DNA from: Parachlamydiales bacterium
GTDB taxonomy: Bacteria > Chlamydiota > Chlamydiia > Chlamydiales > CALOCV01
Reading direction: 5' to 3'
Assembly: GCA_942491955.1 (NCBI GenBank)
Contig: CALOCV010000027.1
Span: forward strand, 250-64,249
Length of the DNA stretch: 64,000 bases
Part shown: one piece after another, positions 2,222 through 54,112 of the stretch
How positions within the stretch are numbered: position 1 is the first letter of the stretch
Layout of the letters: the number at the start of each line of letters is the position of its first letter
Program-made: the position numbers and the translations under genes
Notes under the pieces: generated by a model
The model's input: the letters and a program-made list of their open reading frames with translations, nothing else
Databases searched by the model: none
Told to the model about the DNA's origin: nothing

Positions 2222-3133
2222 ATGCCTCAATTGAATGTACAAAACGTATCAAATTTTAACTCTTTGGATGATTTTTCTTATCAGGGCGTAAAAAAAAATT
2301 CCGAAGGAAACATCCAAGGAAAAGTCTACGTCCGATGGGATATCCTAGATAACCAGTTTCATTTTCACCAGTTTTCTAAAATTGGACTTTTTTTCCATAA
2401 ACTAGGTCTTTGGAAACGAGAATATAACAAAAAAGACCTACAACTATTTTTCTCTGGTTATAAGATAGGACACCTAAGCCATTCTAACATCGACACATCC
2501 CAACCCTTCCGAACTCGAGCTTCAGTTATTTTTAAAGAAATTATTAACGCAAAAAAACACCCTTCTTCACCACAACAGCCAAACCAAACACCATCTCAAC
2601 AACCAAGCACGCCAACACCTCCTCCTACAAGTGGACCTCCACCTCCTCAAAAAACCATTATAGAACAGTGGGAAGAAAAAAAAGAGTATTGGTTCGATGG
2701 TGGATTTATCGAAACAACACCATATGTGCTATCGGTCCAAAATTTCCCTAAAGAGATGCAGGAATCCCTTCCAAAGGCAAATTATTTTTTTGTTGTTGCT
2801 TCTGCTGCAGAAGTTGACGTAGACGAAGTTTGCACTGCACTCAAGCCTTGGTTGCAAAAACGTCAACAAGACGAAAAGTATCAAGATTTGCCCGTCATTA
2901 TTGTCATATCGAGATTAGGAGAACATGCTAACAAGATTCTTTTTAAAATTAATAAAATAGGATGTCCCTTATTCCATGTTTATCATATAGGAAGCCGTCC
3001 AAATCGCTACCGTTTTCCACAAGAAAAAATTCAAGAAATGCTAGACGACATTGCAGAAGTGAATCGACAAATCGAGGCAAATCCAACAAGTTATACCCCT
3101 GAAAAGGTATTAAAACATTTAAACCCGAGTTGA
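2222..3133 (+). CDS. Candidate secreted effector, N-terminal paralog of 438..2102 with a different C-terminal domain
   Basis: 303 aa. Shares FSY...KKN..G.IQGK.YVR...HQFSKIGLFF..LGLW with the upstream ORF; Gln/Pro linker; last codons (NPS*) come from the MITE at 3122. Confidence 0.75.
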   Translation: MPQLNVQNVSNFNSLDDFSYQGVKKNSEGNIQGKVYVRWDILDNQFHFHQFSKIGLFFHKLGLWKREYNKKDLQLFFSGYKIGHLSHSNIDTSQPFRTRASVIFKEIINAKKHPSSPQQPNQTPSQQPSTPTPPPTSGPPPPQKTIIEQWEEKKEYWFDGGFIETTPYVLSVQNFPKEMQESLPKANYFFVVASAAEVDVDEVCTALKPWLQKRQQDEKYQDLPVIIVISRLGEHANKILFKINKIGCPLFHVYHIGSRPNRYRFPQEKIQEMLDDIAEVNRQIEANPTSYTPEKVLKHLNPS

Positions 3134-3280
3134 AACCTACATCACGCGTGAACACAGCCGAGCTTGCCGAGTGGGAGGGATACGTGCCGAAGTCCAAGTC
3201 TGGGACTTGGACGAGGTGCGTATCATTCCAATCGACAAGTGCAGGCCTGTTGATGTGTGATGTAGGGCACAACTCGGGTT
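3122..3280. mobile_element. MITE family D (159 bp)
   Basis: TIR AACCCGAGTTG...CAACTCGGGTT with further imperfect pairing (CCTACATCAC/GTGATGTAGG); TTA on both sides (3119-3121, 3281-3283). Confidence 0.75.
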
Positions 3281-3283
3281 TTA

Positions 3284-3443
3284 TACCAATTCCGGTAAGA
3301 AAGTGCACAAATTGATCTTCATCTTTCTTTGCGCAATCTGTTTTTCTATCTTGCAAACTCACAAGAGTTTGCTGCGATCTCCAAAACAAATTTCGCAAAA
3401 AAATCCTGAATCCACTTTATGCATTTTCTTACCGGAATTGGTT
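3284..3443 (-). mobile_element. MITE family A, copy 1 (160 bp)
   Basis: 18-bp perfect inner TIR ACCAATTCCGGTAAGAAA/TTTCTTACCGGAATTGGT; TTA flanks (3281-3283, 3444-3446); near-identical inverted copy at 14554-14713. Confidence 0.9.
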
Positions 3444-3471
3444 TTAAATACTTCTTCATGATTCATCCACT

Positions 3472-3485
3472 CGGAATTGGTATTA
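3472..3485. repeat. Orphan MITE-A right end plus TTA
   Basis: CGGAATTGGTA|TTA matches the family A terminus. Confidence 0.6.
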
Positions 3486-3535
3486 TTCTAAATAAATTGC
3501 TAAAATGTTCTTTTTAGTTTTTTATCCTCCTTCTC

Positions 3536-52936: not shown

Positions 52937-53033
52937 ACTCCCTTCTCCTTTATCTTATGGACACGAATATCGCATTCTAAGAAAGAGTCCTCTTTTCCGC
53001 AATAGCGGGTAGAAAAAAAGACATTTTTCCGTT

Positions 53034-53339
53034 ATGCAAATCAATATGCAACTCCTTCACCCTAACGACCCATCTCTTACTACTTGCTGGTCCTCCTCTC
53101 TCCATGCCAAGAGGGTGCAAAATTTCCTGCTTCCTTTGATGGAACGGGGAACGGCATCTTTTTTCCAAAATATCAAAACCGACATGTATGCCCTTTTTGT
53201 CGATGACATCGTTTTACCCATCAGCGTGAATGAATCGGAATATGACAATGCGTACGTTTGTTCTCCCTATGGTCAATACATCCGCTTTGCCAAGGAACAA
53301 ATCGGTTCCCTCTCCTTCCCTTTATTAGAACCTGTTTAA
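53034..53339 (+). pseudogene. Truncated gene cut by an IS end
   Basis: ...LPISVNESEYDNAYVCSPYGQYI...; last residues EPV* are encoded by the IS-like terminus at 53328. Confidence 0.55.
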
Positions 53340-53599
53340 AATCTTTCTAATCCTGTATAAAAATTGCTTTCAAAACTTTGGAGGCAATGATGGCTCACTC
53401 TTATCCAAGCGATATTTCTCGAAAGCAATTTGACAAAATCAAACCTTTGCTTGAGTCTGTGCGAAAAAAAACACGTCCTAGAGCGGTCGACTTATATGAT
53501 GTAATTTGTGGCATTTCATATGTTTGAAAAACCAGTTTACATATGGTCATCCTTGCTTTTGTCGTTTTATTCGTAAAACAGTTTTGAACGAGTTTTTAG
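53328..53599 (+). mobile_element. IS5-family remnant with a transposase N-terminal fragment (53387-53527)
   Basis: Left end GAACCTGTTTAAAATCT; MAHSYPSDISRKQFDKIKPLLESVRKKTRPRAVDLYDVICGISYV* resembles IS5-family transposase starts; degenerate right end near 53581-53599. Confidence 0.75.
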
Positions 53600-53604
53600 A
53601 AAAT

Positions 53605-53890
53605 AAACTACCACAGAGCCCACAGAGAACACAGAGGGAGGACATATAGATTGTTTAGTGCATCCAGACATGTCTGAAGAAGTTGTAGAGGATCAGGTAA
53701 TTATAGAAATTAAATCTGTGAATGGAATAGCTCTAATACACGAAGCACAACGACTATCTTATTTAAAGCTCTATGGAACTTGTGCTCGAGGATTGCTGAT
53801 CAATTTTAATGTGAAACGATTGGTAGAAGGCATTCGTCGAATGAAAATATAACCCTCTCTCTGTGCTCTCTGTGGGCTCTGTGGTAGTTT
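53605..53890 (+). mobile_element. GxxExxY C-terminal fragment bounded by 37-bp inverted repeats
   Basis: Arms AAACTACCACAGAGCCCACAGAGA(A/G)CACAGAG(G/A)GAGG (2 mismatches); insert encodes VEDQVIIEIKSV...HEAQRLSYLKL...GLLINFNV.RL..GIRR. Confidence 0.8.
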
Positions 53891-53955
53891 TTATTGCTGA
53901 GATATGTCAACCAAGTTTCTTAAGTAAAGCACATTGTAGGGAATTGTTTATTTAA

Positions 53956-54112
53956 GAACCTGTCTTCACACTTCAAATGGCTAAATTCGAAATTATTTTC
54001 TCTCCAGGAGACGACAAAAATGTGCGGGTAATATTAAAAGACCCGCACATTTTTGTCGTCTCCTGGAGGAAAAGAATCGAATTTAGCTCATTTCAAGTAT
54101 GAAGACAGGTTC
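53956..54112. mobile_element. MITE family C (157 bp), whole element folds as a hairpin
   Basis: TIR GAACCTGTCTTCA; TAA on both sides; inner perfect 28-bp arms 54002-54029 and 54041-54068. Confidence 0.85.

What the first reader, a model, noticed from the sequence alone, without database searches (positions are those of the whole stretch)
3122..54112. MITE families with unrelated termini are all 157-162 bp
Measured lengths without target duplication: D 159, A 160 and 160, A' 161, B 162 and 162, C 157. TIRs differ (AACCCGAG, TACCAAT, GGGCGTGTC, GAACCTG), and interiors are unrelated except A/A'. Random internal deletion of different IS parents should not converge on one size. Inference: a shared constraint such as end-to-end synapsis distance (~15 helical turns), one mobilising enzyme, or a selected RNA or nucleoid function.
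Basis: partly seen in the sequence, partly recalled or inferred. Interest (0 to 1): 0.7.

Follow-up and report, generated by a model that had tools for sequence, protein, structure and literature searches.

The report
Same-sized hairpin MITEs in a chlamydial contig
Seven small non-coding mobile elements from five sequence families in this chlamydial contig really are all 157-162 bp long, but they look like mosaic relatives built on one ~160-bp hairpin scaffold moved by IS5-type transposases, not independent inventions that converged on one size.

Summary
The measurements hold. D is 159 bp, A is 160 and 160, A' is 161, B is 162 and 162, and C is 157. Each has terminal inverted repeats and a TTA/TAA duplication (TA for B). 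A structure-only census of the window finds no other TIR-bounded size class.

New findings:
- Every element is one full-length hairpin of 76-80 pairs.
- An IS5-family (transpos_IS5_3) relic lies in the window. It shares its first 8 nt with C. A relative in Protochlamydia with the same terminal sequence sits between TTA and TTA.
- "Unrelated" is overstated. B's centre aligns with the A/A' centre at the same position. A and A' differ by a block swap of subterminal TIR sequence at both ends.
- Distant chlamydial contigs carry hairpin elements of 160, 163 and 165 bp. One has D's terminus, C's centre, and the interior of a third element with yet another terminus.

My best reading is a chlamydia-wide mosaic MITE superfamily that inherits a ~160-bp scaffold. 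A length constraint is probably also needed, but it is untested.

The source genome could not be reached, so no genome-wide histogram was possible. These are new members of a known kind, of moderate interest.

The parts
3122..3280 (+). MITE D, 159 bp. TIR AACCCGAGTTG; TTA at 3119-3121 and 3281-3283.
   Evidence: Single full-length hairpin, -99.8 kcal/mol, z -12. ORF 2222-3133 reads 12 nt into it and stops there.
3284..3443 (-). MITE A copy 1, 160 bp. It shares the TTA at 3281-3283 with D. The last base of its right TIR is mutated.
   Evidence: 98.7% identical to A2 in reverse orientation.
14554..14713 (+). MITE A copy 2, 160 bp. TIR TACCAATTCCGGTAAGAAA; TTA/TTA.
   Evidence: -78 kcal/mol, z -12.5. 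It lies between convergent genes, 12852-14279 (+) and tatD 14961-15737 (-).
19813..19974 (+). MITE B copy 1, 162 bp. TIR GGGCGTGTCATCAAT; TA on both sides. Its first G completes the TAG stop codon of ORF 19133-19813.
   Evidence: -99.1 kcal/mol, z -17.
19977..20138 (+). MITE B copy 2, 162 bp, in tandem with B1 across a single shared TA (19975-19976).
   Evidence: 98.8% identical to B1.
44859..45019 (+). MITE A', 161 bp. TIR TACYAATGGAAAGAAATAAAGAGACA; TTA/TTA. It ends 6 nt upstream of an ATG at 45026.
   Evidence: interior 77% identical to A, and the subterminal block is replaced at both ends.
53956..54112 (+). MITE C, 157 bp. TIR GAACCTGTCTTCA; TAA/TAA. It is inserted just inside the right end of the IS relic.
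   Evidence: -102.6 kcal/mol, z -17. The arms are 87% complementary.
53328..54133 (+). Relic of an IS5-family insertion sequence. Ends are GAACCTGTTTAAAATCTTT and AAGATTTTGAACAGGTTC, flanked by TTA on the left and TAA on the right. It is gutted and carries two later insertions.
   Evidence: The same terminal sequence occurs on an 859-bp copy in Protochlamydia amoebophila, flanked TTA/TTA (L086 9940-10798), and on L085.
53378..53527 (+). N-terminal transposase fragment of the relic.
   Evidence: Pfam DUF4096, E 3.3e-4. NCBIfam transpos_IS5_3, E 1.2e-9, model positions 1-46 of 258. 63-85% identical to chlamydial transposase N-termini.
30676..30822 (+). Degenerate D-like copy, about 147 bp. Left terminus AACCCAAGTTGCGCCCTACATC; the right terminus has decayed, so the end coordinate is approximate.
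   Evidence: It lies between convergent genes.
24482..24544 (+). Right-arm remnant of a B-like element, ending ...TTGATGACACGCCC|TA, next to a tRNA gene.
14448..14482 (-). 35-nt fragment 91% identical to A' positions 101-135, lying 70 nt from A2.
   Evidence: E 1.5e-7.

Best explanation
The elements are non-autonomous transposons (MITEs) mobilised in trans by IS5-family transposases of the transpos_IS5_3 type, which make 2-3 bp TA/TWA duplications. They belong to a mosaic superfamily spread through environmental Chlamydiae.

The common unit is a ~160-bp scaffold: two arms of about 78 nt that pair into one long hairpin. New 'families' arise when the transposase-binding subterminal blocks are exchanged on an existing interior, as between A and A'. 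They also arise when interiors or centres are exchanged under a given terminus, as with D and C versus L087e1 and L004e. The near-identical length is therefore mainly inherited, not reached by independent deletions.

My inference is that the length is then held in place for two reasons. An indel in one arm disrupts the two-fold symmetry of the ends. Only elements with two matching ends at about this spacing stay mobile.

Shown here: boundaries, duplications, hairpin architecture, the IS relic and its TTA-flanked relative, and the module sharing.

Inferred, not shown: trans-mobilisation, the route of module exchange, and the existence of any length constraint.
For: - Lengths and TSDs are as reported.
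- All seven elements fold as single full-length hairpins, z -9 to -20. They have 76-80 aligned pairs, of which 57-70 are Watson-Crick. Internal deletion of an IS would leave only short TIRs complementary.
- An IS5_3-type relic with terminus GAACCTGT lies in the window. An 859-bp relative with the same terminal sequence sits between TTA and TTA. C shares the first 8 nt and has a TAA duplication.
- A versus A': the outer 7 nt are shared. In columns 8-23, 11 pairs change on both sides and none is broken. The interior shows only 1 double change, 7 single changes and 6 broken pairs. Length is 160 versus 161 bp. This is a block swap of the ends on a conserved interior.
- B's centre matches the A' centre, 32/43 at register 68 versus 68. 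The local score gives p=0.015. The centre-anchored ungapped test gives p=0.004-0.010.
- Other chlamydial contigs, about 50% DsbD identity to the window:
  - L004 1564-1723 is 160 bp with TA/TA.
  - L087 19674-19836 is 163 bp. Its terminus AACCTGAGTTTGAA matches D's AACCCGAGTTGAA.
  - L087 13020-13184 is 165 bp.
  - L004e and L087e1 share interior sequence (0 of 3000 shuffles reach the score) but have different termini.
  - C's centre matches the L087e1 centre, 18/20 at register 62 versus 60, p=0.0017.
- Background DNA shows no such size class.
Against: - No sequence from the rest of this genome could be obtained, so per-family length distributions are unknown.
- C, D and A' are single intact copies in the window.
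- The B-A/A' link is only suggestive once multiple tests are counted.
- No similarity links the A/A'/B group to the C/D/L087/L004 group, apart from weak resemblance at the termini. One superfamily is therefore not shown; there may be two or more.
- Pure descent does not explain why length stayed within about 8 bp while most sequence became unalignable. Some constraint is still needed, and I did not test any.
- Other chlamydial hairpin elements of 105 and 120 bp exist.
- B makes TA rather than TWA and could belong to a different transposase group.
- No intact transposase lies in the window.
Confidence: 0.5

Rival explanations
1. This is the reader's idea of independent origins with a mechanical optimum. 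The families arose separately from different IS parents. Selection on transposition efficiency drove each to about 15 helical turns. That is close to the DNA persistence length and would be the shortest spacing at which the two ends can be synapsed in the right rotational phase.
For: - Most pairwise comparisons show no detectable homology: D against A, B and C, and C against A and B, all z<2.
- Length is conserved to +-3 bp in the window, and 160-165 bp recurs in distant lineages with other termini.
- All elements use the same type of staggered cut (TA/TWA), so they would share the geometry of one transposase family.
- 157-162 bp is 14.95-15.4 turns at 10.5 bp per turn (my arithmetic).
Against: - Whole-length hairpin structure and shared modules are not expected from independent deletions.
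- A 5-8 bp spread is about half to three-quarters of a helical turn, which is loose for a phasing rule.
- The natural 859-bp IS, and chlamydial hairpin elements of 105 and 120 bp, show that other spacings are tolerated. Those shorter elements may use other enzymes.
- From memory, other bacterial MITE systems span 80-400 bp.
Confidence: 0.2
2. This is host-selected function. The size reflects a selected role of the ~80-bp hairpin as RNA (3'-end stabiliser, terminator, or RNase III substrate) or as DNA (a cruciform or nucleoid-protein site). Copies persist because they are useful.
For: - Four of six loci lie between convergent gene ends (A2, B1/B2, C and the D-like copy). Two insertions supply a stop codon or a new C-terminus.
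- Arm mismatches are biased towards G:T over A:C on one strand: B 8:1, A2 5:1, A' 4:0, D 7:4. This gives strand-asymmetric fold energies, for example B -99 versus -66 kcal/mol.
- C carries a GC-rich central stem followed by ATTTTTGT on both strands.
Against: - The G:T bias is weak: only B reaches p=0.04, and orientation was not fixed beforehand.
- The interior differences between A and A' are mostly non-compensatory, with 6 broken pairs against 1 double change.
- No Rfam family matches.
- Location at convergent gene ends is also where insertions are least harmful.
- A1 sits antisense to its neighbours.
- No expression data could be obtained.
Confidence: 0.1
3. This is a sampling coincidence. 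A 64-kb window happens to hold the ~160-bp members of families whose genome-wide lengths are broad, and nothing special fixes the size.
For: - There are only seven intact copies.
- Three of the five families are seen once.
- The one decayed D-like copy is about 147 bp.
- Other chlamydial hairpin elements of 105 and 120 bp exist.
Against: - The census found no TIR+TSD element of another size in the window.
- None of the background elements falls in 157-165 bp.
- Three of five non-heptamer hairpin elements in 167 kb of other chlamydial DNA are 160-165 bp.
Confidence: 0.15

Closest known systems
Tourist-like MITEs of the PIF/Harbinger-IS5 superfamily, and bacterial MITEs derived from IS5-family elements (IS1031/IS427-type groups)
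   Same: - 3-bp TTA/TAA (TWA) target duplication.
- Short TIRs, no coding capacity, and hairpin-forming potential.
- Insertion into or beside other elements. Here D and A1 share a TTA, B1 and B2 share a TA, and C sits inside the IS relic.
- An IS5-family relic with a matching terminus lies in the window.
   Different: - No intact cognate transposase was found.
- The termini of A and A' do not resemble the GAGCCTG/GAACCTG type.
- B duplicates TA only.
- The whole element, not just the ends, is an inverted repeat.
- Assignment to named ISfinder groups rests on my memory of their end sequences and duplication sizes. It was not tested.
Correia elements (CREE/NEMIS) of Neisseria
   Same: - From memory, about 105-158 bp, with TA duplication and 26-bp TIRs.
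- No known autonomous parent.
- They fold into RNA hairpins.
- They sit at gene ends.
- A central bending-protein site has been proposed to help bring the close-set ends together.
- Similar size class; the L004 element even starts TATAGTG.
   Different: - There is no sequence similarity to the window's elements.
- Several TIR classes occur here instead of one.
- The duplication is TWA rather than TA for most.
- The phylum is different.
- No bending-site consensus was identified here.
ERIC/IRU, RUP and other whole-length palindromic enterobacterial or streptococcal MITEs
   Same: They are imperfect palindromes along the whole element, have TA-type duplications, lie between genes, and are transcribed into hairpins in their hosts (from memory).
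   Different: - Their sizes are 107-127 bp (from memory).
- Each has a single family per genome lineage.
- No modular exchange of termini has been reported, as far as I know.

Membership tests
MITE (generic) | Small size (under about 500 bp) with terminal inverted repeats. | tested here: met
   157-162 bp. Perfect TIR cores of 11-26 nt.
MITE (generic) | Target-site duplication flanking each copy. | tested here: met
   TTA for D, A1, A2 and A'; TAA for C; TA for B1 and B2. No empty site was available to prove duplication directly.
MITE (generic) | No transposase, and no meaningful coding capacity. | tested here: met
   The longest internal ORFs are 36-41 aa. None is on record as a called gene.
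MITE (generic) | Multiple dispersed copies in the genome. | tested here: inconclusive
   A has 2 dispersed copies. B has a tandem pair plus a remnant. D has 1 intact copy plus 1 decayed copy. A' has 1 copy plus a fragment. C has 1 copy.
MITE (generic) | An autonomous element with matching termini. | tested here: inconclusive
   Only C has a candidate. Its first 8 nt equal those of the IS5-family relic and of the Protochlamydia copy, and then diverge. No candidate was found for A, A', B or D.
IS5-family-derived (Tourist-like) MITE | 2-4 bp duplication of TA/TWA type. | tested here: met
   A related 859-bp IS is flanked TTA/TTA.
IS5-family-derived (Tourist-like) MITE | Termini resembling those of an IS5-family element. 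| tested here: inconclusive
   C matches 8/8. B matches 8 of the first 12 nt of C. D shares AACCYG. A and A' share only ACC.
IS5-family-derived (Tourist-like) MITE | Mobilisation by an IS5-family transposase. | not testable with these tools
   This needs a transposition assay. Only a 50-aa transposase fragment is present.
Correia/NEMIS | The characteristic 26-bp TIR sequence, and restriction to Neisseria. | tested here: not met
   The termini are AACCCGAG, TACCAAT, GGGCGTGTC and GAACCTG. The host is a chlamydia.
IS630/Tc1-mariner-derived (Stowaway-like) MITE | Strict TA duplication. | tested here: inconclusive
   B fits. For D, A and A', a TA reading would need asymmetric ends, so TTA is the more economical reading. 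IS630-type transposases do occur in other chlamydiae.
REP/BIME-type palindromes (RAYT-associated) | 20-40 nt palindromes with no TIR/TSD structure. | tested here: not met
   The elements are 157-162 bp with TIRs and duplications. The separate 63-65-nt palindrome family in the window is closer to this kind.

The most novel reading that the evidence does not exclude
The ~160-bp size is an actively enforced physical rule. For IS5-type transposases working on very short substrates, only ends spaced about 15-15.5 helical turns apart, near the DNA persistence length, can be synapsed. Alternatively, the element may move or be repaired through its 78-bp hairpin form. Either way, any terminus class in any chlamydial lineage is funnelled to the same length.
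Probability: 0.2. Interest if true: 0.65.

Novelty: new member of a known kind. Interest (0 to 1): 0.42.

Why it matters
MITEs have not been described in Chlamydiae in the literature I could search. The one genome paper I read on chlamydial repeats counted only repeats longer than 200 bp, which would miss these elements.

The elements are dense here: 7 intact copies plus remnants in 64 kb. They alter gene ends, and they break assemblies. A Logan contig ends inside the 165-bp element of L087/L088.

If the mosaic-scaffold picture holds, it is a clear case of how MITE 'families' with different termini are generated from one another. If a real length rule exists, it would give a simple, testable physical constraint on how a transposase brings two ends together.

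Tried and rejected
- **Reaching the source genome failed.**
  - Exact-protein look-ups of window genes, of MITE-internal ORFs and of the window's own listed protein P0121 found nothing.
  - The genome-contig scan with the A/A' core gave three chance hits only.
  - The metagenome scan with the A TIR gave nothing.
  - No match to the IS relic region or the elements in the plasmid collection.
- **The viral-contig scans were unproductive.** One gave nothing. One gave a chance hit in a 60% GC contig.
- **The metagenome protein scan with DsbD returned mostly non-chlamydial loci**. I used them as a background for element lengths instead.
- **Rfam.** No family covers the elements. Only spurious miRNA-hairpin hits were found on the 63-65-nt palindromes.
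- **Rejected: the window is Waddlia.** My own inference: the best DsbD hits across all sources are about 50% identical, and the contig is 66 kb.
- **Rejected: the IS relic is C's direct parent.** The sequences diverge after 8 nt.
- **Rejected: A' arose by refolding one arm.** Similarity between A and A' is orientation-specific (score 174 versus 120), so the interior asymmetry predates the split.
- **Considered and left open:** a G:T wobble bias as evidence for an RNA-level constraint.
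Full report
**What is there**

The window is chlamydial. Its DsbD is about 50% identical to the best hits, which are Parachlamydiaceae and unnamed Chlamydiae, so no close relative is in the databases. The window's own protein record shows a 66,269-bp contig.

| Element | Coordinates | Length | Flanks |
|---|---|---|---|
| D | 3122-3280 | 159 bp | TTA/TTA |
| A1 | 3284-3443 | 160 bp | TTA/TTA |
| A2 | 14554-14713 | 160 bp | TTA/TTA |
| B1 | 19813-19974 | 162 bp | TA/TA |
| B2 | 19977-20138 | 162 bp | TA/TA |
| A' | 44859-45019 | 161 bp | TTA/TTA |
| C | 53956-54112 | 157 bp | TAA/TAA |

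B1 and B2 form a tandem pair across one shared TA.

**Is it more than chance or selective reporting?**

I wrote an anti-diagonal detector for TIR- or hairpin-bounded elements. In the window it finds 11 strong elements in three classes only:
- the seven ~160-bp elements;
- three 63-65-nt perfect palindromes;
- one 286-296-bp element that carries a PD-(D/E)XK gene fragment.

The same detector on about 0.92 Mb of mostly non-chlamydial loci gives about 21 elements from 46 to 535 bp, and none in 157-165 bp. The clustering is therefore real for this window. The chance estimate of 1e-3 to 1e-5 for three or four independent families is my inference from a uniform 100-400 bp prior.

**Architecture**

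Each element folds as one hairpin over its whole length:
- Minimum free energy is -63 to -103 kcal/mol on the plus strand.
- z is -9 to -20 against dinucleotide shuffles.
- There are 76-80 aligned arm pairs, of which 57-70 are Watson-Crick.

This is not what simple internal deletion of an insertion sequence leaves behind. That process would give only short complementary ends.

**Which transposase family**

A gutted insertion sequence lies at 53328-54133. Its ends are GAACCTGTTTAAAATCTTT and AAGATTTTGAACAGGTTC.

It keeps a 50-aa transposase N-terminus. This matches Pfam DUF4096 at E 3.3e-4 and NCBIfam transpos_IS5_3 at E 1.2e-9. The fragment is 63-85% identical to transposase N-termini of Protochlamydia, Rhabdochlamydia and chlamydial metagenome contigs.

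In Protochlamydia amoebophila an 859-bp copy with the same terminal sequence sits between TTA and TTA (L086 9940-10798). Another copy starts GAGCCTGTTCAAAATCTTTC directly after TAA (L085). So this IS lineage makes the same 3-bp TWA duplication seen on D, A, A' and C.

C shares the IS's first 8 nt and is inserted at a TAA just inside the relic's right end. B's TA and its terminus also fit the IS5 family; its terminus GGGCGTGTCATC matches 8 of 12 positions of C's GAACCTGTCTTC. An IS630-type enzyme cannot be excluded for B.

**Are the families unrelated?**

Global alignments detect only the A/A' relationship. Register-aware tests say more.

A versus A':
- The outer 7 nt are shared.
- Columns 8-23 differ at 11 pairs. 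Every change is matched on the other arm and none is broken.
- The interior is 77% identical and changes mostly non-compensatorily (1 double change, 7 single, 6 broken).
- Length is 160 versus 161 bp.

This is a block replacement of the presumed transposase-binding part of both ends on a conserved interior.

B versus A/A':
- B's centre aligns with the A' centre, 32/43 at the same register (68 versus 68).
- Centre-anchored ungapped identity gives p=0.004 for A2-B1 and p=0.010 for A'-B1.
- The register-free local score gives p=0.015.

This link is suggestive but not robust.

**Other chlamydiae**

About 167 kb of chlamydial DNA from other lineages could be fetched. It holds these hairpin elements:

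| Locus and coordinates | Length | Notes |
|---|---|---|
| L004 1564-1723 | 160 bp | TA/TA |
| L087 19674-19836 | 163 bp | |
| L087 13020-13184 | 165 bp | |
| L005 (4803-4922) | 120 bp | |
| L091 (3213-3317) | 105 bp | |

A separate class has heptamer-repeat arms (152, 220 and 147 bp).

The 163-bp element, L087e1, ties several things together:
- Its terminus AACCTGAGTTTGAA matches D's AACCCGAGTTGAA.
- Its interior is homologous to that of the L004 element, which has a different terminus. None of 3000 shuffles reaches the score.
- Its centre matches C's centre, 18/20 at register 60 versus 62, p=0.0017.

The ~160-bp hairpin element is therefore not peculiar to this genome. Termini and interiors are shuffled among its members.

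**Interpretation**

My best reading, at confidence 0.5, has three parts:
- These are IS5-family-mobilised hairpin MITEs of a mosaic superfamily.
- The common size is mainly inherited from a shared scaffold.
- New 'families' are made by exchanging end blocks or interiors.

It does not remove the puzzle entirely. Lengths stay within about 8 bp across lineages whose elements are otherwise mostly unalignable. That suggests a constraint, either two-fold symmetry of the hairpin or a spacing requirement for synapsis. I could not test either.

The rivals are independent origins under a mechanical optimum (0.2), host-selected hairpin function (0.1) and sampling coincidence (0.15).

The evidence for an RNA role is weak:
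- There is a modest G:T over A:C bias in arm mismatches, with B at 8:1 and p=0.04.
- Four of six loci lie between convergent genes.
- C has a terminator-like centre.

**Insertion behaviour**

Three features are shown directly by the sequence:
- D and A1 share one TTA, B1 and B2 share one TA, and C lies inside the IS relic next to its end. New copies tend to land at the boundaries of older ones.
- D replaces the last four codons of ORF 2222-3133.
- B1's first base completes the stop codon of ORF 19133-19813.

Decayed relatives show the families are older and more numerous than the intact copies suggest. These are a D-like copy of about 147 bp at 30676-30822, a B right arm at 24482-24544, and an A' fragment at 14448-14482.

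**Limits**

No other part of the source genome, no reads and no close relative could be reached. Per-family length histograms, copy numbers and the autonomous partners of A, A', B and D therefore remain unknown.

I found no paper describing MITEs in Chlamydiae. The Waddlia genome paper counted only repeats longer than 200 bp.

Assignments to named ISfinder groups, and the comparisons with Correia, ERIC, RUP and Tourist elements, rest on my own knowledge.

Noticed in passing
window 26215-26277, 43060-43124, 44077-44139: Three copies of a 63-65-nt perfect palindrome, TTTGGGGTCAGGCCTGACATTCGGACATTTGGAACAAATGTCCGAATGTCAGGCCTGACCCCAAA. Each lies directly beside a gene end. It is a REP-like repeat family, distinct from the 160-bp elements. 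The only Rfam hits are spurious miRNA-precursor matches.
   Followed up: partly
window 53600-53895: A 296-bp element with 42-nt inverted arms made of CACAGAG-type heptamer repeats. It encloses the C-terminal fragment of a PD-(D/E)XK (PDDEXK_3, GxxExxY-like) protein (Pfam E 1e-12) and is inserted in the IS relic. Elements with similar heptamer- or octamer-repeat arms occur in other loci: L004 8863-9014, L005 13112-13331, L006 8580-8726, L018 20779-20854 and L022 12882-12998.
   Followed up: partly
window 7718-7743: A run of 26 C lies inside the large uvrA-like gene. The reading frame changes across it: ORF 3536-7930 continues as ORF 7264-9258 in another frame. This is either an assembly error at a homopolymer or a slippage-prone tract.
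   Followed up: partly
window 11990-12671: A psiE gene (Pfam E 1e-29) is bracketed by an exact 11-nt inverted repeat, TTATACCAATA. The repeat contains the A/A' terminus TACCAAT next to TTA on the left and TAA on the right. I estimate about 0.002 such pairs by chance. This may be a cargo-carrying relative of family A, or a coincidence.
   Followed up: partly
window 14396-14435 and 24263-24302: A 40-nt palindromic repeat, GTCATCAACATGCGCAAAATCAAGCGCACGTTTGATGAC, is present twice in inverted orientation at 95% identity. One copy is near A2. The other is beside the tRNA gene at 24343-24415.
   Followed up: no
window 3472-3485 and 14525-14534: Solo copies of the A terminus (CGGAATTGGTATTA and ATTGGTATAA) lie 23-39 nt from the intact A copies. 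The count of the 7-mer TACCAAT outside the elements is about what chance predicts.
   Followed up: partly
L087 13020-13184 / L088 end: A Logan contig of the same organism as L087 ends 56 nt into the 165-bp hairpin element. This suggests the element is multi-copy there and breaks short-read assemblies.
   Followed up: no
window 62137-62181: A tandem heptamer, TAGCATT, about 5.6 copies, in an intergenic stretch.
   Followed up: no
window 3536-9258: The uvrA-like region contains an internal ~2.9-kb duplication at 62-78% identity (repeat families D1, D3, D5 and D6). This reads as two UvrA-like modules in tandem.
   Followed up: no
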